From Clostridia bacterium (lineage in GTDB: Bacteria; Bacillota; Clostridia; TANB77; CAG-508), in the NCBI GenBank assembly GCA_017533795.1, contig JAFWIH010000020.1, positions 9,335 to 73,334 on the forward strand: a stretch of DNA of 64,000 nt, written 5' to 3'. Under the pieces are notes generated by a model, which worked only from the letters and a program-made list of their open reading frames with translations, was not told where the DNA came from and did no database searches. The stretch's first letter is position 1, and every line of letters begins with the position of its first letter. Position numbers and translations under genes: made by a program. Positions 19,593 to 56,388 of the stretch are shown in pieces.

Positions 19593-20324
19593 ATGCCAAC
19601 ACCACATAATCAAGCTAATATTGGTGATATTGCAAAAACAGTTATAATGCCTGGAGATCCATTGCGTGCGAAATATATAGCTGAAAATTTTTTAGAAGAC
19701 TATACCTTAGTAAATTCAATTAGAAACATTTATGCTTATACAGGTAACTATAAGGGTAAACAATTAACTATTATGGCTTCTGGTATGGGGATGCCAAGTA
19801 TGGGAATTTATTGCTATGAGCTTTATAAATTTTATAATGTAGAAAACATTATTCGTATAGGTTCCTGTGGAGGTTATGATTCTAATCTAAAACTATTTGA
19901 CATTATTCTATCTGAACAAACATATACAGAATCAAATTTTGCTTTAACTATGAACAACGAAAATTGTCATATAGTAAAATCTAATTTGGAGCTAAATTCT
20001 ATACTTGAATCAACTGCCAATGAATTAAATATCGATATTTTTAAAGGAACCACTGCATGTACAGATTGTTTTGATTTGTATATGACTACAGGCTCTACAG
20101 AGTTTTTAAAAAGAGCTCCATCAGACATTACTATTGCTGGTGTTGAAATGGAAGCTTTTGCATTATTTTATACTGCAAAAGTCCTTGGTAAAAGAGCTTC
20201 ATGTTTGATGAGTGTTGTGGATTTAAACTCTGAAACTCATTCTGTACAAGCCTCTGCTGAGAAACGTGAAACTGGTCTTAATAACATGATTAAACTTGCA
20301 CTTGAAAGTGCAATAAAAATTTAG
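19593..20324 (+). CDS. deoD: Purine nucleoside phosphorylase, DeoD type.
   Basis: MPTPHNQANIGDIAKTVIMPGDPLRAKYIAENFLED, typical of the PNP/UDP family 1. Confidence 0.9.
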   Translation: MPTPHNQANIGDIAKTVIMPGDPLRAKYIAENFLEDYTLVNSIRNIYAYTGNYKGKQLTIMASGMGMPSMGIYCYELYKFYNVENIIRIGSCGGYDSNLKLFDIILSEQTYTESNFALTMNNENCHIVKSNLELNSILESTANELNIDIFKGTTACTDCFDLYMTTGSTEFLKRAPSDITIAGVEMEAFALFYTAKVLGKRASCLMSVVDLNSETHSVQASAEKRETGLNNMIKLALESAIKI

Positions 20325-20336
20325 GAGAAAGAAGCT

Positions 20337-20441
20337 CAACCAAAGGGGATGTGAAAACGGTCAAAGGGGACGGAGGATTTTGACAGAAAATCTGTCAAAA
20401 TCCTCCGTCCCCTTTGACCGTTTTCACATCCCCTTTGGTTG
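20337..20441. repeat. GC-rich perfect palindrome (51-bp stem, 3-nt loop) exactly between convergent deoD and the SipW-operon end. Likely a bidirectional terminator, and member of a repeat family with the element at 52785-52880.
   Basis: caaccaaaggggatgtgaaaacggtcaaaggggacggaggattttgacaga-aaa-tctgtcaaaatcctccgtcccctttgaccgttttcacatcccctttggttg. GC content is far above flanks. It shares caa[ac]ggggacgg...attttg...ttgaca with the second copy. Confidence 0.75.
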
Positions 20442-20442
20442 T

Positions 20443-20964
20443 TTATTCTGCTTCTTTATATTTTCTCTTAACTATTCTTTTCCATTTTTCCTTAAATTTA
20501 AATCTGTTAAAATGATATATCCAAGCAAGAATAATAATTGATATTACAGAGAAAACTTTCGACTGAATCACCTTTACAATTCCACTAACATTTTTAAATT
20601 CTATCAGTTTCCTTCCTATTATGTTTTTCTCTGTCATTTCTGCAGTATCAGGATAATAATTGTTTTCTATTTTTGTTGAAAAATATTTTTTCCCTGTTTC
20701 TGAATCAGTATATATATTATTAATTGCCCCAACTTTTATATGACCATTGTAATAATAAGCAATTGTTTCATTTTGCTGTAAAGAGTTAATATTACCTTCT
20801 CTAGTTATTACCACATTTTTTAGTGGTAGAATTCCTATTCCAAATATATTAAGATATTTTTTCCCTGTAATCATTGTATTAACTAAATAGATAAAATTAT
20901 AAATTATAGCAGTTACTAATATAATATAAAGAATTTTATAAAATATCCTTCTCTTTTGCTTCAT
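20443..20964 (-). CDS. Small bitopic membrane protein (N- and C-terminal TM), last gene of the giant-protein/SipW operon.
   Basis: 173 aa. It overlaps the end of sipW-1 by 29 nt. No recognisable motifs. Confidence 0.45.
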   Translation of the reverse strand: MKQKRRIFYKILYIILVTAIIYNFIYLVNTMITGKKYLNIFGIGILPLKNVVITREGNINSLQQNETIAYYYNGHIKVGAINNIYTDSETGKKYFSTKIENNYYPDTAEMTEKNIIGRKLIEFKNVSGIVKVIQSKVFSVISIIILAWIYHFNRFKFKEKWKRIVKRKYKEAE

Positions 20965-43762: not shown

Positions 43763-44683
43763 ATGATTAATTATTCGGATAAGGATAACATAGATAAGCT
43801 AATACTGCTCGAAAAGAATTCTTTACAGGCAACTATCGATATTCAAAAAACGCTAAATAAGCAGATATTAGTTTTTATGAAAAATTTTATAGGTAATATA
43901 GAAATAAGCGCTGATAATGATGGTGAAAATAGTGCATACATGTATTTAAGCAAATCAACCACTGTATTAAACAAATCAAATACTAATATTTCTAATATTG
44001 GAAAATTATTAGAGTTATTAGATAATTTACAAGAAGCAACAGAAACCCTACCTCAATCAAAGCTAATTTCTAAAATAGAAGCTTATAACAAAAAATTCTC
44101 CACAACTATTGATTCAACATATAAAAATACTAAAAAAATTGAAGAATTCATTCACGAAACTTCAATGCTTGATTTATCAACATTTTTAAAAGAAAACTCA
44201 AAGCCTGAAAAAAGTGTAAAAAAAGAAAATGAAGAACAAACTAATACCATTACTAGTACAGATTTGGAATCTGGATTTATAGAAAAAACACTTATTATTT
44301 CAGACATACAAAAAAAAGTTATTTTACCTTATAAATTAGACAAAATTGAAGATATATTACTTGCTAATAGTGCAAAATACAAGTCTTTACAAGATGTTAT
44401 AGATAAACTATATACAAGGCCAATTAAATACTATAAAGCCCCTGCAATAGCAAGATTCAAGGAATCCTATAGATTAATGAGAAAAAAAGAACACAGTTCT
44501 ATACTTAAGGCACTATCTCTTGCTTCAGAATTGTTTATGAATTATAATTTACATCCAGCAATAATTACTGCATGTAAAAATATAGATCAATTAGATATAT
44601 ATTTAGCTTGTTTAGAAGATGATACCTTAGATGAATTTAAATTTTTTGATATCAAATATGAAGTTGCTCCTAAATTAACATAG
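43763..44683 (+). CDS. Hypothetical cytoplasmic protein, divergent from the SipW island.
   Basis: The ORF track begins at TTG 43748. ATG 43763 is preferred because GGAGGG lies 7 nt upstream. No recognisable domain. Confidence 0.5.
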   Translation: MINYSDKDNIDKLILLEKNSLQATIDIQKTLNKQILVFMKNFIGNIEISADNDGENSAYMYLSKSTTVLNKSNTNISNIGKLLELLDNLQEATETLPQSKLISKIEAYNKKFSTTIDSTYKNTKKIEEFIHETSMLDLSTFLKENSKPEKSVKKENEEQTNTITSTDLESGFIEKTLIISDIQKKVILPYKLDKIEDILLANSAKYKSLQDVIDKLYTRPIKYYKAPAIARFKESYRLMRKKEHSSILKALSLASELFMNYNLHPAIITACKNIDQLDIYLACLEDDTLDEFKFFDIKYEVAPKLT

Positions 44684-44693
44684 GAGCAACTTT

Positions 44694-45434
44694 TTATTTA
44701 CAAAATCTGTGTTTTCCTATTGTTACAGTCATTGGCCTTGACCATATCCATTTATTTGTTGCGGTGCTAGGATTAAAATAATATATTGCACCATATGAAG
44801 GATCCCAGCCATTCATTGCATCTTGTGCAGCTTTTTTTGATGCACTATCCGGATTTAAATTTATTTGTCCATCTGATACCGCATCAAAAGCCCCCTTTTG
44901 ATAAATCACTCCAGCAATTGTGTTGGGAAACGAACTACTTTTTACTCTGTTTAAAATTACAGCTCCGACTGCCACTTGTCCAGTGTATGGTTCTCCTCTA
45001 GACTCGCCATATATTAAATGGCTTAGTAAATTTATATCTGATGAATTTGTACTAGAACTTCCACTATTTGATCCACTTGATGTTATTCCCATAGCTGCTA
45101 AAGTTTTTGGCCCTGCAATGCCGTCTACAGTTAATCCATTTTTTTGTTGAAATTTTTTTACAGCCGAAACAGTTTGTGTTCCATAAATTCCATCTACACT
45201 TCCATTATAATATCCCCATCTTTTTAATTTTTCTTGTATTTTACTTACTTCTGTTCCCCTTGAACCATATTTTGAAAGTGCTTCTACTTTGCTTATTTTA
45301 AAAAATATAATTGAAATAGTCATTATAGTAATAATTAGTATTATCATTTTTATTAGTCTTTTTCTTTTATTAAACATATAACCACCTTTAGATAATTTTT
45401 TATATTTTATCCAAAAGTGGTTATTTTTATACAA
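44694..45434 (-). CDS. sleB: SleB/CwlJ-family cell-wall hydrolase (spore-cortex-lytic enzyme-like) with signal anchor and one peptidoglycan-binding repeat.
   Basis: PG_binding_1-like GSRGTEVSKIQEKLKRWGYYNGSVDGIYGTQTVSAVKKFQQKNGLTVDGIAGPKT. Hydrolase_2-like YGESRGEPYTGQVAVGAVILNRV...AFDAVSDG. Confidence 0.65.
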   Translation of the reverse strand: MYKNNHFWIKYKKLSKGGYMFNKRKRLIKMIILIITIMTISIIFFKISKVEALSKYGSRGTEVSKIQEKLKRWGYYNGSVDGIYGTQTVSAVKKFQQKNGLTVDGIAGPKTLAAMGITSSGSNSGSSSTNSSDINLLSHLIYGESRGEPYTGQVAVGAVILNRVKSSSFPNTIAGVIYQKGAFDAVSDGQINLNPDSASKKAAQDAMNGWDPSYGAIYYFNPSTATNKWIWSRPMTVTIGKHRFCK

Positions 45435-51688: not shown

Positions 51689-51776
51689 TTTTTCTCCTTT
51701 GAATATAAAAACTCTTTTTTATCTTATCATTTTTTTTTGTTTTTTACAACAAAAAACGGAAAATTTTACTAAAGTC

Positions 51777-51805
51777 TTTAAATTCCGCTAAATCTGTGGT
51801 ATAAT
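51777..51805 (+). promoter_or_regulatory. Sigma-A-like promoter with extended -10 for the SPFH gene.
   Basis: TTTAAA-17 nt-(TGg)TATAAT. ~55-nt leader to the AAGGAGGA RBS. Confidence 0.4.
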
Positions 51806-51864
51806 TATGTTAGTGTCGTTTTTAATTTTAAAAAATATATAATATATAAAAGGAGGATATTTAA

Positions 51865-52770
51865 ATGACATTTTTATTAATTTTACTTGCTATAATTTTA
51901 GTTATAGCCTTTATGTCAATTAAAATTGTTAGACAATCTGAGGTGTATGTAATCGAAAGATTAGGTAGATTTCATAAAGTAGCTGATGCAGGTCTTACAA
52001 TTATAGTTCCATTTATAGATCATGTAAGATCAGTTGTAAGCTTAAAACAGCAAACAATGGACATTCCACCTCAAGGAGTTATTACTAAAGATAATGTTAC
52101 AATTACAATAGATACTGTTGTATTCTATCAAGTTGCTGACCCTGCCAAAGCAGTATACGAAATTCAAAGTCTAAAGAAAGGTATTGAATATTTATCTATT
52201 ACAACAATTCGTGATATCATTGGTAAAATGGATTTAGACGAAACATTCACTTCTAGAGATGATATTAATGCAAAATTAAGGACTATACTTGATGAAGCTA
52301 CAGATAAATGGGGATGCAATATAGATAGAGTTGAAGTTATGGATATTAACCCACCTGCAGATATTAGAGATGCAATGGAAAAACAAATGAATGCTGAAAG
52401 AAATAAAAGAGCTTTAATTCTTGAAGCAGAAGCTCAAAAGCAATCTGCTATTACAATTGCTGAAGGTAAAAAAGAAGCTGCTATTTTGGAAGCAGAAGCT
52501 GATAGTGAAGCAAAAATAAGAAGAGCTGCTGGTGATGCTGAAGCTATAAAACAAGTTGCAGAAGCAAAAGCTAAAGAAGTTCAAATGGTTTATGAAGCAA
52601 TTAAGCAAGCTGATCCAGATGAAAAGCTAGTTCAAATTAAATCTTTAGAAGCACTAGAAGAAGTTGCCAAAGGTGAAGCAAACAAAGTGTTTATTCCTTT
52701 TGATGCAACATCTGCTTTAGGTAGTTTAGGTGCAATTAAAGAAGTTCTAAAAAATGACAATAAAGAATAA
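51865..52770 (+). CDS. SPFH/band-7 (stomatin/flotillin-like) membrane protein.
   Basis: N-terminal TM, then IVRQSEVYVIERLGRFHKVADAGLTIIVPFID. The C-terminus is A/E-rich coiled coil. Confidence 0.85.
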   Translation: MTFLLILLAIILVIAFMSIKIVRQSEVYVIERLGRFHKVADAGLTIIVPFIDHVRSVVSLKQQTMDIPPQGVITKDNVTITIDTVVFYQVADPAKAVYEIQSLKKGIEYLSITTIRDIIGKMDLDETFTSRDDINAKLRTILDEATDKWGCNIDRVEVMDINPPADIRDAMEKQMNAERNKRALILEAEAQKQSAITIAEGKKEAAILEAEADSEAKIRRAAGDAEAIKQVAEAKAKEVQMVYEAIKQADPDEKLVQIKSLEALEEVAKGEANKVFIPFDATSALGSLGAIKEVLKNDNKE

Positions 52771-52784
52771 GACCAAGGGCGACA

Positions 52785-52880
52785 GGTTCCAACCAACGGG
52801 GACGGGTTCATTTTGGTTGACAAATGTTTGTCAACCAAAATGAACCCGTCCCCGTTGGTTGGAACCGTTGGTTGGAATCC
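52785..52880. repeat. Second GC-rich long palindrome (38-bp stem) between convergent SPFH gene and ileS, with a 14-bp partial direct duplication on its right flank. Same family as 20337-20441.
   Basis: ggttccaaccaacggggacgggttcattttggttgacaaa-tg-tttgtcaaccaaaatgaacccgtccccgttggttggaacc, then gttggttggaatcc. Confidence 0.75.
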
Positions 52881-55800
52881 CTATTTTTTAATTACTTCGA
52901 CATCAATTTTTAAATTTTCACCATTAATTTTGCATTCTGTATAACTTGTTCTTTCTTCATTATAAATAATTTTTTCAGCTAAAGTATCTCTTTTTATTGT
53001 AGCTGCATATTTTTTTGTTACATCTTCTAGCGTAGTATTTCCTGAAACATAAAGATTAATTCTATCTAAAACTTCGAAGCCTTTATCTTTTCTCATATTT
53101 TGAACTTTAGAAAGGATTTCTCTTAAGTAGCCTTCCTCCTTAAGTTCTGGCGTTATTGCTGTGTCTAAAACAACACCTATCTCTCCTTCTCCATTAAACG
53201 CATATCCATCTCTTCCTTGCATTGTAACAAGTAGATTCTCTTGGTCTAATCCAATCTCTGTTCCATCTATATCAATATATTCTATTTCACCACTTTTTAC
53301 TTTATTTGCCAAATCCATCTGATTCATCTTTGATATTTCATTTCGTATTTGTGGTATTAATTTTCCATATTCTTTACCAAGCACAGGTAAGTTTGGCTTA
53401 ATTTCAAAATGTACATATTCTGACATTTCGCTTCCCAGAATAACCTCTTTTACATTTAGTTCTTCTTTTACAACATCACTATAGTATTCTGGTAAAGTAT
53501 CAACAGATATTAACATTTTTGATAATGGCTGCCTATTCTTTATGTTTGCAGTATTTCTTGCTCCCCTACCTAGTTTAACTATTTTATATGCTAAGCTCAT
53601 CTCTTCTTCTAATTTTTTATCTATTACACTTTCATCTACATCAGGCCACAAACATAAATGAACACTTTCTGGAGCATCTTTATCAATTCCAGCAACCAAG
53701 TTTTGATAAATCTCATCAGTCATAAATGGTACAAATGGAGCTGAAACCTTTATAAGAGTTGTCAATACTTTATACAACGTTACATATGCACCTATTTTAT
53801 CGTCAGTTAATATTTCACTCCAAAATCTTTCTCTGTTTCTACGTACATACCAATTAGAAAGTTCGTCTGTAAATTCTCCTATTTGTATAGCTGCAGATGT
53901 TATATCATAATGTTCTAGTTTTTGATCTATTTCTTTAACTAATGTATTTAATTTTGAAATTATCCATTTGTCCATTATATGATCTGATTTAAATTCTTTA
54001 TATTCTAATGGATTAAACTTATCTATCTCTCCATATAACACATAGAATGAATATACATTCCAAAGTGTACTTAAAAATTTTCTTTGTGTTTCCTCAACAT
54101 TTTCTAAAGAAAGTCTTGTAGGTAGCCATGGGCTACTACATGTATAAAAATGCCATCTTGTTGCATCTGCACCAACTGTGTCTAAAAGAGTAAATGGATC
54201 AACACCATTTTTCTTAGATTTAGACATCTTTTGTCCTTTTCCATCTAAAACATGCCCCAAAACTATACAGTTTTCAAACGGAGTTTTCCCAAATAATGCT
54301 GTTCCTATAGCTGTTAATGTATAGAACCAGCCTCTAGTTTGATCTACAGCTTCTGAAATAAACTGAGCTGGGAAGTTTTCCTTAAACATTTCTTTATTTT
54401 CAAATGGATAATGCCATTGTGCAAAAGGCATTGATCCAGAATCAAACCAGCAGTCTATAACTTCTTTAAACCTTGTCATTTCTTTGCCACATTTTGGACA
54501 TTTTAAGTGCACCTCGTCTATATATGGTTTATGTAATTCTATATCATCAGGACAATCAACTGCTTTTTCCTTTAATTCTTTTATGCTTCCAATACATTCC
54601 TGATGTCCACATTCACATTGCCAAACAGGAAGTGGTGTTCCCCAATATCTATCTCTAGAAATTCCCCAATCAATAACATTTTCTAGGAATTTTCCAAATC
54701 TACCTGTTCTTATTGTATCAGGATACCAGTTCACTTTATTATTATTGCTTACTAATTCATCTCTTAGTTTACTCATTGCAACAAACCAGCTTTCTTTTGG
54801 ATAATAAAGAAGTGGTGTGTCACATCTCCAGCAATGTGGATATGAGTGCATATGTTTTTCACTACTAAATAATTTATTTTCTTCTTTTAACCATTTAACT
54901 ATATCTTGGTCACAATCTTTTACAAATCTTCCTGCCCAAGGTTTAACATCTTCTACAAACTTTCCAGATTTATCAACTAAGTTTACAAAAGCAATACCAT
55001 TTTGTTTAGAAACTAAGCTATCATCTTCTCCATATGCAGGTGCAATATGTACTATACCAGTACCATCTTCTAGATTTACATAGTCTCCATGAATTACAAC
55101 AAATGCTTTTCCATCTACTTTTGCAAATGGCATAAGCTGTTCATATTTTGTTCCAAGTAATTCTGTTCCAGGAAATTCTTTCACTATTTCATATGGTGTT
55201 TCCTTTAATACTGCTTCTATTAAGTCTTTTGCTAATATATAATTTTCATATTGTGGTTCTTCATCTGTTCCAACATTTGCTTTTACTTCTACATATGTAT
55301 AAGCTTTATTAATACATAATGCTAAGTTTGATGGTAATGTCCATGGAGTTGTTGTCCAAGCTAAAATATACTTATTCTCTCCTACTACTTTAAATTTTGC
55401 AATACAAGTTAAGTCTTTTACATCTTTATATCCTTGTGCAACTTCATGTGAAGATAAAGCAGTTCCACATCTTGGGCAATACGGCATAACTTTATGTCCT
55501 TCATATAATAAACCTTTTTCCCACATTTGCTTTAGGGCCCACCAAACAGATTCTATGTAATTATTATGATATGTTACATATGGATTGTCCATATCTACCC
55601 AAAATCCAACTTGGTTAGTCATTTTTTCCCATGTAGAAACATATGTAAATACACTTTCTTTACACTTCTTAACAAATTTTTCTACACCATATTCTTCTAT
55701 TTGCTCTTTTCCAGAAATCCCTAATTGCTTTTCTATCTCTAATTCAACAGGTAAACCATGTGTGTCCCATCCAGCTTTACGAATTACTTGGTAGCCCTTC

Positions 55801-56029: not shown

Positions 56030-56388
56030 CTCCTTGATTTATTTTTACTTTCTTATACTGTTATTGAAAATGTTTTTGCAGATTTATGTCAAATAAACAC
56101 GTCCCTATTGACACATTGGCAATTACAAAAAAGCTACTTCATCCACTGTTAGGACGAAATAGCTTTTCCGCGGTACCACCTATTTTAGTAATTTATATTA
56201 CGAAATAAATATACTCTCTTCATTTTCTTTAACGCAGATATACGGCAAGGCTTACTTTTAGTTCAGCCATGCAACAACATAAGTGATAATAAACAATTTT
56301 TACTTACCAAATTTCCAGCTACCTTTGGCTCTCTAAAAGATATTATACTGTTTATCGTGTCTTATGTCTTGTTTTTTCTTATTTTTAC
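56030..56388 (-). promoter_or_regulatory. T-box riboswitch leader of ileS.
   Basis: The minus strand carries the canonical T-box sequence AATAGGTGGTACCGCGG (plus coordinates 56168-56181). It is followed by a terminator AAAAGCTATTTCGTCC-TAACAGT-GGATGAAGTAGCTTTT plus T6 (~56127-56175) whose 5' arm overlaps the T-box, giving antiterminator/terminator competition. Confidence 0.8.

What the first reader, a model, noticed from the sequence alone, without database searches (positions are those of the whole stretch)
20337..20441. Long GC-rich perfect palindromes of one family at two convergent gene junctions
A 51-bp perfect stem with a 3-nt loop lies between deoD and the end of the SipW operon. Its GC content is well above the ~26% background. 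A second element (52785-52880, 38-bp perfect stem) sits between the SPFH gene and ileS. The two share caa[ac]ggggacgg...attttg...ttgaca[ga]a. The second copy is followed by a 14-bp near-tandem duplication (gttggttggaacc/gttggttggaatcc), reminiscent of an insertion footprint. Such stems are far longer than needed for termination. They may be a dispersed miniature palindromic element (REP/RUP/BOX-like) of this lineage that doubles as a bidirectional terminator and mRNA-stability element.
Basis: seen in the sequence. Interest (0 to 1): 0.6.

Follow-up and report, generated by a model that had tools for sequence, protein, structure and literature searches.

The report
Transposase-linked palindromic repeat doublets (REPIN-like)
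The two giant GC-rich palindromes are real. Each is a back-to-back pair of a small hairpin repeat that, in many other Clostridia, brackets a RayT-type (IS200-like) transposase gene, so they are a REP/REPIN-type selfish repeat rather than oversized terminators.

Summary
Both palindromes exist as described. E1 is 20337-20441 (51-bp perfect arms). E2 is 52785-52866 (40-bp arms, not 38). They are extreme outliers: the next best perfect hairpin in the window has 12 bp. Each arm contains a ~31-nt unit: a variable, covarying 6-9-bp stem closing a 13-16-nt loop that starts with the invariant GGGGACGG.

A pattern scan of species genomes found over 115 such inverted pairs, mostly in Clostridia and often several per genome. 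In three of those loci a Y1/HUH transposase gene of RAYT (TnpA-REP) type lay nearby. I then took 80 metagenome loci chosen only by homology to that protein. Sixty carry GGGGACGG about 65 nt upstream and/or CCGTCCCC 12-35 nt downstream, and most of the others carry variants. This matches the GGGGWSAS repeats reported around 'TIRYT' (RAYT group 1, subclass 2.1) genes.

A covariance model built only from those transposase flanks finds exactly four hits in the window: the four arms of E1 and E2.

So E1 and E2 are gene-less, REPIN-like doublets of a known kind of transposase-associated repeat, here in a ruminant-gut Clostridia genome. Terminator or mRNA-stabilising roles are plausible but untested. 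The cognate transposase was not located in this genome.

The parts
20337..20441 (.). E1: perfect palindrome (51-bp arms, loop AAA). It is a head-to-head doublet of repeat units and fills the junction between the deoD-like gene (stop 20322-20324) and the convergent 173-aa ORF (stop 20443-20445).
20357..20387 (+). E1 left unit: stem GTCAAA/TTTGAC closing the loop GGGGACGGAGGAT.
   Evidence: Hit of covariance model R1, which was built only from transposase flanks: 18.6 bits, E 0.008. Local stem found.
20391..20421 (-). E1 right unit, an exact inverted copy of the left unit.
   Evidence: 18.6 bits, E 0.008
20337..20361 (+). Outer, decayed unit-like module of E1 (CAACCAAAGGGGATGTGAAAACGGT). Its 5' part resembles the E2 unit (CAACCAACGGGGACG, 13 of 15 bases). 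It is mirrored exactly at 20417-20441.
   Evidence: Direct reading. It was not detected by model R1, so this reading rests on similarity by eye.
20322..20335 (+). Flank that pairs with 20450-20455 and 20463-20470 in the predicted RNA fold and extends the E1 hairpin into the 3' end of the downstream ORF. In relative L027 the orthologous flank (CGAGAAAGAAGG) has become a perfect part of the palindrome.
52785..52866 (.). E2: perfect palindrome (40-bp arms, loop TG). It is a head-to-head doublet between the Band_7/SPFH gene (stop 52768-52770) and ileS (stop 52881-52883).
52789..52820 (+). E2 left unit: stem CAACCAA/TTGGTTG closing the loop CGGGGACGGGTTCATT.
   Evidence: 19.9 bits, E 0.003
52831..52862 (-). 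E2 right unit, an exact inverted copy of the left unit.
   Evidence: 19.9 bits, E 0.003
52771..52789 (+). Decayed third unit fragment GACCAAGGGCGACAGGTTC. It matches 15 of 19 bases of the intact AACCAACGGGGACGGGTTC at 52791-52809.
   Evidence: Direct reading. Not detected by R1.
52867..52880 (+). Partial duplicate GTTGGTTGGAATCC of the stem and tail segment 52854-52866.
   Evidence: Comparable unit-fragment duplications occur in relatives L027 and L235.

Best explanation
E1 and E2 are non-autonomous, REPIN-like doublets of a REP/TIR-type repeat unit that belongs to a RAYT-family Y1 (HUH) transposase.

The unit is about 31 nt. A 6-9-bp stem of variable, covarying sequence closes a 13-16-nt loop that begins with the invariant GGGGACGG. 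In many Clostridia one such unit lies about 65 nt upstream of a RayT-like gene, and an inverted copy lies 12-35 nt after its stop codon. E1 and E2 have the same G-unit then C-unit arrangement with nothing in between. They are the two ends of that cassette without the gene, as a MITE relates to an IS, or a REPIN to a REPtron.

Shown here: the unit and its covariation, its association with the transposase gene and its orientation rule, its presence at many loci and in many genomes, and turnover at the orthologous junction in relatives.

Inferred by analogy with TnpA-REP and IS200/IS605: the transposase recognises the folded unit on single-stranded DNA and copies or moves doublets in trans. Also inferred: the exact symmetry of composite arms arises by inverted duplication or hairpin-templated correction of a whole arm, not by independent insertions.

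Inferred from position and folding energy: in the host the doublets sit at gene 3' ends and, once transcribed, form very stable hairpins that would block read-through and 3' exonucleases.
For: (1) Unit structure. I took 150 GGGGACGG contexts from loci selected only by transposase homology, with no filter on pairing. The 9-bp stem / 13-nt loop model is 68.1% paired against 43.6% in shuffles (0 of 500 reach it). The covariation score is 0.598 against 0.203 in shuffles and at most 0.204 for slid registers. In imperfect doublets such as L034, the left and right units have different stems, each internally complementary.

(2) Transposase link. L087 has a 255-aa ORF flanked on both sides by the elements. 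It hits Pfam Y1_Tnp (E 4e-10) and NCBIfam 'REP-associated tyrosine transposase' (71 bits, below the 80-bit cutoff). The only PDB match is E. coli TnpA-REP 4ER8. Homologs lie near a motif match in L073 and L046.

(3) Independent test. Of 80 metagenome loci picked by protein homology alone, 60 have the exact 8-mer within 250 bp. Upstream it is GGGGACGG on the coding strand, mostly at -59 to -76. Downstream it is CCGTCCCC, mostly at +12 to +35. An unbiased 8-mer enrichment gives CAAGGGGACGGTTCT. Of the 20 loci with no exact 8-mer, 13 carry a variant such as GGGACGG, GGGGACAG or GGGGTCAG. A cultured Butyrivibrio proteoclasticus genome shows the same arrangement.

(4) Covariance model R1, built only from those flanks, finds four hits with E < 0.01 in the 64-kb window. 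They are the four arms of E1 and E2.

(5) Orientation rule. Adjacent inverted pairs are G-unit then C-unit 30 times and the reverse once, after excluding pairs ascertained by the search pattern.

(6) Dispersal and context. Several genomes were hit on 2-4 contigs. Of 46 doublets classified by context, 42 are extragenic: 15 convergent, 26 tandem and 1 divergent.

(7) Turnover at the deoD junction. The window and L031 carry the E1 type with compensated differences. L027 and L235 carry an E2-like type with unit duplications. L236 carries a solo unit with a different stem plus a decayed partner. L029 carries an AT-rich hairpin whose stem recurs at its Band_7/ileS junction around a GGGACGG loop.

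(8) Literature. TIRYT/RAYT group 1 genes are flanked at a fixed distance by inverted repeats sharing GGGGWSAS, and these form moderately abundant families, dimers and clusters (PMC3733652; PMC6006769; PMC5581495).
Against: No RayT-like gene is in the window. None was located for this genome, so current mobility here is unproven and the copies may be relics.

Only two loci were found in about 83 kb of this genome: the window plus about 19 kb of flanks. No whole-genome copy number is available.

No strain pair with and without an element at the same site was found, so no insertion event was seen directly.

The classical REP tag GTAG is absent.

The genome scan used a pattern derived from E1 and E2, so its hit list is ascertained. 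The protein-selected sample and the covariance model were used to control for that.

The covariance-model E-values are rough because calibration was short.
Confidence: 0.8

Rival explanations
1. They are ordinary, vertically inherited bidirectional intrinsic terminators that have grown unusually long stems. The shared motif would reflect common constraints on GC-rich stem bases.
For: All four convergent junctions in the window carry a hairpin. The + side of E1 is followed by TTTATT. In L029 each single unit is followed by a T-run facing its own gene. Doublets avoid divergent, promoter-containing spacers.
Against: The orthologous junction carries different unit types in close relatives. The same 8-mer with covarying stems flanks a transposase gene in 60 of 80 independent loci. 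Three of the four sides of E1 and E2 lack a T-tract directly after the stem. The other two convergent junctions make do with 12- and 15-bp stems without the motif.
Confidence: 0.07
2. The palindromes arise locally by replication template switching (quasi-palindrome correction and inverted duplication) at terminator hairpins. No transposase would be involved.
For: Arms are exactly symmetric even where they contain a decayed outer module (E1). In L027 the deoD-side flank has been mirrored into the palindrome. Unit-fragment duplications differ between the close relatives L027 and L235. L007 shows a single-arm mismatch, so symmetry is not absolute.
Against: This does not explain why the same loop 8-mer recurs at unrelated loci and in distant genomes. 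It does not explain the fixed-distance flanking of RayT-like genes, or the 30:1 orientation rule. It most likely acts together with the transposase-linked origin by shaping symmetry, rather than replacing it.
Confidence: 0.08
3. The unit is a structured RNA (or DNA) motif whose conserved GGGGACGG loop is bound by a conserved host factor, for example an RNA-binding protein acting on 3' UTRs. Its position next to the transposase gene would be a regulatory use of the same motif.
For: A conserved loop with covarying stem is the classic signature of a structured element. In the transposase flanks the upstream unit sits at a fixed distance. Its 3' stem half often reads TTGACA at -35-like spacing from a TATAAT-like box.
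Against: No Rfam family matches. Only generic miRNA-hairpin models score, all below their thresholds. Units occur in both orientations as strict inverted pairs and in tandem arrays. That pattern fits DNA-level repeats better than a strand-specific RNA signal. No candidate factor was identified.
Confidence: 0.05

Closest known systems
TIRtrons / TIRYT repeats (Di Nocera et al. 2013, PMC3733652), equal to RAYT group 1 (Bertels et al. 2017, PMC5581495) and TnpA-Y1 subclass 2.1 (Quentin et al. 2018, PMC6006769)
   Same: The RayT-like Y1 transposase has an extra C-terminal HTH-like tail (weak HTH_23/28/29 hits). The gene is flanked at a fixed distance by inverted repeats sharing a G-rich 8-mer: GGGGWSAS in the literature, and here GGGGACGG with GGGGACAG and GGGGTCAG variants. 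The repeats also occur away from the gene as dimers and clusters in moderate copy number.
   Different: The consensus differs at position 7 (G instead of A). The hosts are Clostridia, which the 2013 text as searched here does not mention (no occurrence of 'Clostridi' or 'Firmicutes'). The unit here is clearly a hairpin with the motif in its loop and covarying stems, whereas Quentin et al. state that no REP-like structures were found for subclass 2.1. The doublets form perfect palindromes of 82-105 bp.
REP / REPIN-RAYT systems of Escherichia coli and Pseudomonas (Nunvar 2010; Bertels and Rainey 2011, PMC3116915; TnpA-REP structure 4ER8)
   Same: Short extragenic palindromic units occur as inverted doublets that fold into long hairpins. 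They sit at gene 3' ends and flank a RAYT gene in inverted orientation. The best PDB match of the transposase is TnpA-REP.
   Different: There is no GTAG tag at the base of the hairpin. The conserved part is an 8-nt motif inside the loop. The transposase belongs to a different RAYT subclass with a C-terminal HTH. Copy density appears lower: 2 in about 83 kb here.
CGTC-tagged REPs (Di Nocera et al. 2013)
   Same: CCGTCCCC contains CGTC. The units are short hairpins organised mainly as head-to-head dimers downstream of genes.
   Different: CGTC REPs have the tag unpaired at one end, 8-9-bp stems, 4-5-nt loops and a CCA tail. They are reported to lack any associated transposase and were found mainly in Alphaproteobacteria. 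Here the motif is in a 13-nt loop and is tied to a transposase.
MITEs of Firmicutes (RUP, BOX, bcr1, EFAR) and IS200/IS605-derived PATEs
   Same: They are non-coding, intergenic, structured and multi-copy, and are presumed to be mobilised in trans.
   Different: No target-site duplication flanks E1 or E2, and there is no sequence relation to those families. PATEs carry distinct left-end and right-end hairpins of an IS. Here the two ends are inverted copies of one unit.
Intrinsic (Rho-independent) bidirectional terminators
   Same: GC-rich hairpins sit between convergent genes, and the + side of E1 has a T-rich tail.
   Different: The stems are 3-5 times longer than usual. Three of the four sides lack an adjacent T-tract. 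The sequence family is shared with transposase flanks.

Membership tests
RAYT/TIRYT-associated repeat family (TIRtron type) | The unit flanks a Y1 (HUH) RayT-like transposase gene as inverted copies at a conserved distance. | tested here: met
   In 60 of 80 protein-selected loci the exact 8-mer lies within 250 bp: upstream on the coding strand mostly at -59 to -76, and downstream as the reverse complement mostly at +12 to +35. Also seen in L087, L073 and B. proteoclasticus L238. The E1 and E2 arms match the model built from those flanks.
RAYT/TIRYT-associated repeat family (TIRtron type) | Shared G-rich motif GGGGWSAS in the repeats. | tested here: inconclusive
   E1 and E2 carry GGGGACGG, which matches 7 of 8 positions (G, not A, at position 7). 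Sister loci carry GGGGACAG and GGGGTCAG, which fit exactly. This reads as a variant of the published consensus (PMC3733652).
RAYT/TIRYT-associated repeat family (TIRtron type) | The transposase has the HUH motif, Y---NP and a C-terminal HTH-like extension. | tested here: met
   NH[VC]H and Y-x3-NP are invariant in alignment A4. Y1_Tnp scores above the Pfam cutoff. NF047646 scores 71 bits, below its 80-bit cutoff. The only PDB hit is 4ER8. HTH hits in the last ~30 residues are weak and sub-threshold.
RAYT/TIRYT-associated repeat family (TIRtron type) | A cognate transposase gene is present in the same genome as E1 and E2. | not tested
   None is in the window or in about 19 kb of extra flank. 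The rest of this metagenome-assembled genome could not be read with the tools. The top 120 homologs did not include one on the 568,184-bp contig that carries the deoD-like gene of the window.
Classical REP/REPIN (RAYT groups 2/3) | Conserved GTAG tetranucleotide at the 5' base of the hairpin. | tested here: not met
   There is no GTAG at either end of the units. Conservation lies in the loop.
Classical REP/REPIN (RAYT groups 2/3) | Inverted doublets of the unit that fold into one long hairpin. | tested here: met
   E1 and E2. There are many further doublets in other genomes and a strict G-unit then C-unit order, 30:1.
Classical REP/REPIN (RAYT groups 2/3) | Tens to hundreds of dispersed extragenic copies per genome. 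| tested here: inconclusive
   There are two loci in about 83 kb of this genome. Of 46 doublets classified, 42 are extragenic. No whole-genome count was possible.
Classical REP/REPIN (RAYT groups 2/3) | Transposase-dependent excision or duplication. | not testable with these tools
   This needs biochemistry or population sequencing.
MITE (TIR plus target-site duplication) | Direct target-site duplication flanking the element. | tested here: not met
   E1 is flanked by ...GAAGCT and TTTATT.... E2 is flanked by ...GCGACA and GTTGGT.... There is no direct repeat at the borders. The 13/14-nt repeat at E2 duplicates internal element sequence.
Intrinsic terminator | GC-rich hairpin followed immediately by a U-tract on the transcribed strand. 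| tested here: inconclusive
   The + side of E1 reads TTTATTCT. The - side of E1 reads AGCTTCTTTC. The + side of E2 reads GTTGGTTGG, with a T-run only 16 nt downstream of the stem. The - side of E2 reads TGTCGCCC. The consensus scanner did not flag E1, possibly because it counts at most 20 stem pairs. No RNA data are available.
Rfam RNA families | Match to a curated covariance model at its gathering score. | tested here: not met
   Only a T-box upstream of ileS passes. At E1 and E2 only generic miRNA-hairpin models score, all below their thresholds.

The most novel reading that the evidence does not exclude
Subclass 2.1 (group 1, 'TIRYT') RayT transposases are the second-largest RAYT subclass and have been reported to lack REP-like substrates. 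This reading holds that they do have a hairpin substrate, recognised through a conserved 8-nt loop motif (GGGGACGG/GGGGWSAS) rather than a GTAG tag at the stem base. It also holds that in Clostridia they sustain REPIN-like populations of gene-less doublets that become perfect palindromes of 80-105 bp at gene 3' ends. A related inverted repeat next to a homolog in one Peregrinibacteria genome suggests a wider range. If true, REPIN-RAYT biology extends to gut Firmicutes, and cultured hosts such as Butyrivibrio proteoclasticus become available for testing.
Probability: 0.4. Interest if true: 0.55.

Novelty: new member of a known kind. Interest (0 to 1): 0.4.

Why it matters
It explains two otherwise odd features of an AT-rich gut Clostridia genome as members of a transposase-associated repeat family.

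It also suggests that the large, poorly understood group 1/TIRYT branch of RayT transposases has a defined hairpin substrate. That substrate has a conserved loop and, per lineage, a matching stem.

In practice, these palindromes break short-read assemblies. Several contigs end inside E1, and many transposase contigs are only about 1 kb long. The elements mark variable junctions, so recognising them helps assembly of metagenome-derived genomes, annotation of 3' ends and strain comparison.

The functional consequences for the flanking genes (deoD-like, SPFH/Band_7, ileS) remain to be measured.

Tried and rejected
- **Rfam.** Gathering thresholds over the whole window, then E-value mode on both elements, returned only generic miRNA-type hairpin matches below threshold.
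- **Viral contigs, DNA pattern.** GGGGACGG..CCGTCCCCKTTG gave 19 hits. All were unrelated or coding, and none belonged to the family.
- **Viral contigs, transposase profile.** Only 8 weak-to-moderate loci came back, so phages do not look like the main carriers.
- **Full-text search for the 8-mer.** It returned only primer sequences.
- **Other identities considered and dropped:**
  - DNA uptake sequences and Chi/KOPS-like skewed motifs: too rare here, with only 4 occurrences in 64 kb.
  - CsrA-type GGA loops and C-rich sRNA seeds: no strand consistency.
  - Transcription-factor operators: the stems covary instead of being conserved.
  - CRISPR repeats, attC sites and rolling-circle origins: no supporting context.
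  - 'CGTC REPs': different geometry, and reported to lack a transposase.
- **Search for this genome's own transposase.**
  - tblastn of the window and all fetched loci.
  - Profile search of the protein database, looking for a hit on the 568-kb contig that carries the deoD-like gene.
  - About 19 kb of genome walking. All three were negative or uninformative. One look-up failed because the ORF is cut by the window end.
- **More copies next to the window.** None found.
Full report
**Observation**

- E1 has 51-nt arms (20337-20387 and 20391-20441) that are 100% complementary around a 3-nt loop.
- E2 has 40-nt arms (52785-52824 and 52827-52866) around a 2-nt loop.
- An exhaustive search for perfect hairpins shows how extreme these are. 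The next best stem in the 64-kb window has 12 bp.
- The stems are about 50% G+C in a window of 25-33% G+C.
- GGGGACGG occurs four times, only in these arms, against 0.05 expected.
- The window has four convergent gene junctions. E1 and E2 occupy two of them. The other two carry ordinary 12- and 15-bp hairpins without the motif.
- As RNA the two regions fold at -110.9 kcal/mol (z = -20) and -87.7 kcal/mol (z = -12.7). The E1 hairpin extends into its flanks.
- Independent metagenome assemblies of the same species give identical sequence. One (L007) has a single-base difference in one arm of E2. Several contigs end inside E1. The palindromes are therefore genuine, and they break assemblies.
- The source is a ruminant-gut 'Clostridia bacterium' metagenome-assembled genome.

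**Anatomy**

Aligning E1 with E2 shows a shared inner core, CAA[AC]GGGGACGG(3-4 nt)ATTTTG...GACA[GA]A.

The key observation is that each arm is itself a small hairpin.
- In E1, GTCAAA/TTTGAC closes the loop GGGGACGGAGGAT.
- In E2, CAACCAA/TTGGTTG closes CGGGGACGGGTTCATT.

E1 also carries an outer, decayed module (CAACCAAAGGGGATG...) that resembles the 5' half of the E2 unit and is mirrored exactly in the other arm. E2 is flanked on the left by a decayed copy of the unit core (GACCAAGGGCGACAGGTTC, 15 of 19 bases). On the right it is flanked by a 14-nt partial duplicate of its stem and tail. Neither element is bordered by a target-site duplication.

**Relatives at the same junction**

I used homologs of the deoD-like protein to fetch orthologous loci.
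- A relative with 86% protein identity (L031) has an E1-type palindrome in which the inner stem differs on both arms (GGAGGAAAATGACAC).
- Relatives at 82% (L027, L028, L235) carry a palindrome of about 57 bp at the deoD junction whose core is E2-like (GGGGGACGGGTTCATTTTGGTTGGCA). L027 has a 21-nt unit-fragment duplication in the right arm. L235 has a tandem unit duplication in the left arm. The deoD-side flank is mirrored into the palindrome.
- A relative at 81% (L236) has a single unit with yet another stem (CTGCCA/TGGCAG) next to a decayed partner.
- Another relative at 81% (L029) has an AT-rich 15-16-bp hairpin there. The same stem recurs at its Band_7/ileS junction around a GGGACGGTTCT loop. 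It is followed by a second, oppositely oriented unit, GCGGTCAAA-GGGGACGGGCTTA-TTTGACCGC.

The junction is therefore occupied by this family in all these species. The subtype, copy number and symmetry change quickly, which is not what a simply conserved terminator would show.

**Wider distribution**

- A minority are single hits in high-G+C genomes and look like chance.
- Most are extended palindromes in Clostridia. These include Lachnospiraceae such as Dorea, Extibacter, Bariatricus and Faecalicatena, Oscillospiraceae, and many ruminant-gut 'Clostridia bacterium' genomes of 25-30% G+C. Several genomes were hit on two to four contigs.
- Within a genome the copies share a stem sequence. Between genomes the stems differ but stay self-complementary: TGTCAA/TTGACA, TGCCA/TGGCA, TTACCA/TGGTAA, TGCAATAT/ATATTGCA, AACAATT/AATTGTT.
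- In imperfect doublets such as L034 the left and right units have different stems, each internally paired. The local unit, not the long palindrome, is what is conserved.
- Some genomes have tandem arrays of a 16-nt GGGGACGGAGAAATTT repeat, up to about 10 copies, next to inverted copies.
- The same pattern in viral contigs gave only unrelated hits.

**The transposase link**

In locus L087 two elements 900 bp apart bracket a 255-aa ORF.
- It is a Y1_Tnp protein (Pfam E 4e-10).
- It matches NCBIfam 'REP-associated tyrosine transposase' at 71 bits, below that model's 80-bit cutoff.
- Its only relative among solved structures is E. coli TnpA-REP, 4ER8.
- tblastn found homologs near a motif match in two more of the 115 loci. 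One is a Lachnospiraceae genome (L073), with units directly on both sides of the gene. The other is a Peregrinibacteria genome (L046), with a GGGGACGG inverted repeat about 60 nt upstream of the gene. I did not test that repeat for the unit's hairpin structure.

Those loci had been selected by the DNA motif, so I made an independent test. A profile of the three proteins (A4) was used to fetch 80 metagenome loci by protein homology alone.
- Sixty of the 80 carry the exact 8-mer within 250 bp of the gene.
- Upstream it is GGGGACGG on the coding strand, mostly 59-76 nt before the start codon. Downstream it is the reverse complement, mostly 12-35 nt after the stop.
- The most enriched 8-mers in the flanks tile into CAAGGGGACGGTTCT.
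- Of the 20 loci with no exact 8-mer in either flank, 13 carry a variant such as GGGACGG, GGGGACAG or GGGGTCAG.
- Each gene's two flanking units share a stem specific to that locus.
- A cultured Butyrivibrio proteoclasticus genome shows the same arrangement.
- The protein family is large: over 5,300 database clusters at E <= 1e-10. Some sources label its members 'REP element-mobilizing transposase RayT'. Many of its contigs are about 1 kb long, as expected if repeats on both sides break assemblies.

**Structure and model**

I aligned 150 distinct GGGGACGG contexts from the protein-selected loci, with no filter on pairing (alignment A5).
- A 9-bp stem around a 13-nt loop is 68.1% paired, against 43.6% in column shuffles (0 of 500 reach it).
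- The covariation score is 0.598, against 0.203 in shuffles and at most 0.204 when the partner is slid by 1-3 columns.
- All nine pairs show changes on both sides.

A covariance model built from this alignment (R1) contains no sequence from the window. Run unfiltered over the window, it finds four hits with E < 0.01 and nothing else below E = 1. The hits are 20357-20387 (+), 20391-20421 (-), 52789-52820 (+) and 52831-52862 (-), which are the arms of E1 and E2.

**Arrangement and context**

Adjacent inverted pairs are almost always G-unit followed by C-unit: 11 to 0 in the protein-selected loci, and 19 to 1 in the genome loci after removing pairs ascertained by the search pattern. That is the order of the two ends around the transposase gene. 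A doublet therefore looks like the cassette with the gene removed.

Of 46 doublets classified by context in genomes with at most 50% G+C, 42 are extragenic: 15 in convergent spacers, 26 in tandem spacers and 1 in a divergent spacer. They sit at gene 3' ends and avoid promoter regions, as REPs do.

**Comparison with what is known**

- Di Nocera et al. (PMC3733652) described RAYT-like genes ('TIRYT') that are not flanked by GTAG REPs. They are flanked instead by inverted repeats at a fixed distance that share GGGGWSAS, and some of these form moderately abundant families organised as dimers or clusters.
- Quentin et al. (PMC6006769) equate TIRYT with their subclass 2.1, which equals group 1 of Bertels et al. 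(PMC5581495) and is also found in Clostridia. They note its C-terminal HTH-like domain and state that no REP-like structures could be identified next to these genes.
- The proteins here have HUH and Y-x3-NP motifs and a tail with weak HTH hits. Their flanking motif fits GGGGWSAS in 7 of 8 positions, and exactly in some sister loci.

I therefore file E1 and E2 as a Clostridia member of this known kind. They are not classical GTAG REPs (feature tested, not met). They are not 'CGTC REPs' (different geometry, and reported to lack a transposase). They are not MITEs with target duplications.

Three things appear to go beyond the papers I could read:
- the clear hairpin with the motif in its loop and covarying stems;
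- the strict doublet orientation;
- the very long perfect palindromes in AT-rich gut Clostridia.

**Mechanism**

The unit, its link to the transposase gene, its dispersal and its turnover are shown.

That the transposase recognises the folded unit on single-stranded DNA and mobilises doublets in trans is inferred from TnpA-REP and IS200/IS605 biology.

The exact symmetry of composite arms argues that whole arms are copied as inverted duplicates or corrected against each other, for example by hairpin-templated synthesis or template switching. E1's arms are symmetric even though they include a decayed outer module, and in L027 a flank has been mirrored into the palindrome. This symmetry process is inference.

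A host-level role as a transcription barrier or 3'-end protector is plausible from position and stability. However, only one of the four sides has a T-tract directly after the stem, and no RNA data exist.

**Limits**

- No RayT-like gene lies in the window, and I could not read the rest of this genome.
- About 19 kb of additional flank contains no further copy. The density here is two loci in about 83 kb.
- No filled-versus-empty site pair was found.
- The genome scan was truncated and pattern-ascertained.
- The covariance-model E-values are rough.

Noticed in passing
window 20443-44683, compared with L029 10735-10779 and L236 2232-2301: About 24 kb is absent in two relatives. It holds the SipW-like signal peptidase, a 3053-aa repeat protein and the genes up to 44683. 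In those relatives the deoD-like gene is followed directly by the ortholog of window 44694-45434 (PG_binding/Hydrolase_2, 81% identity). E1 sits at one border of this indel and the 12-bp hairpin 44661-44692 at the other. Relative L027 has the island.
   Followed up: partly
window 56147-56378 (-): A T-box leader lies upstream of ileS (Rfam RF00230, 95.6 bits, above its gathering score).
   Followed up: no
L066 287-480; L140 1-180 and 5145-5175: A 16-nt repeat GGGGACGGAG(A/T)6 forms tandem arrays of up to about 10 copies at gene 3' ends in two low-GC Clostridia genomes. The arrays lie next to inverted copies, so the core can also amplify as an array and not only as doublets.
   Followed up: partly
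L147-L226, about 65 nt upstream of the RayT-like start codons (e.g. L159, L160, L171): The 3' half of the upstream unit's stem often reads TTGACA and lies about 17 nt before a TATAAT-like box. The repeat may supply the -35 element of the transposase promoter. TTGACA also occurs in the E1 and E2 units, but no -10 box follows it there.
   Followed up: partly
L046 4367-5130 and 6772-6820; L047, L065 and L074: A Candidatus Peregrinibacteria genome carries a shorter RayT homolog with a GGGGACGG inverted repeat just upstream of it and a second one about 1.7 kb away. A Propionibacteriaceae metagenome-assembled genome carries GGGGACGG inverted repeats on three contigs. This suggests cross-phylum spread, or mis-binning in the second case.
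   Followed up: no
L002, L004, L031, L235 (contig ends); P0002-P0011 and many RayT contigs of about 0.9-1.5 kb: Short-read assemblies frequently stop inside these palindromes or right next to the transposase gene. The elements are a systematic cause of contig breaks in rumen and gut metagenomes.
   Followed up: partly
L115 3554-3598: One doublet lies inside a 1192-aa ORF on the opposite strand, which would be an intragenic copy. Three other 'inside ORF' calls fall within short (112-224 aa) ORFs from the crude ORF caller used and may be spurious.
   Followed up: no
L029 18001-18288 compared with window 51700-51865: Relative L029 has an NfeD gene directly upstream of the Band_7/SPFH gene. The window has no such ORF at that position.
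   Followed up: no
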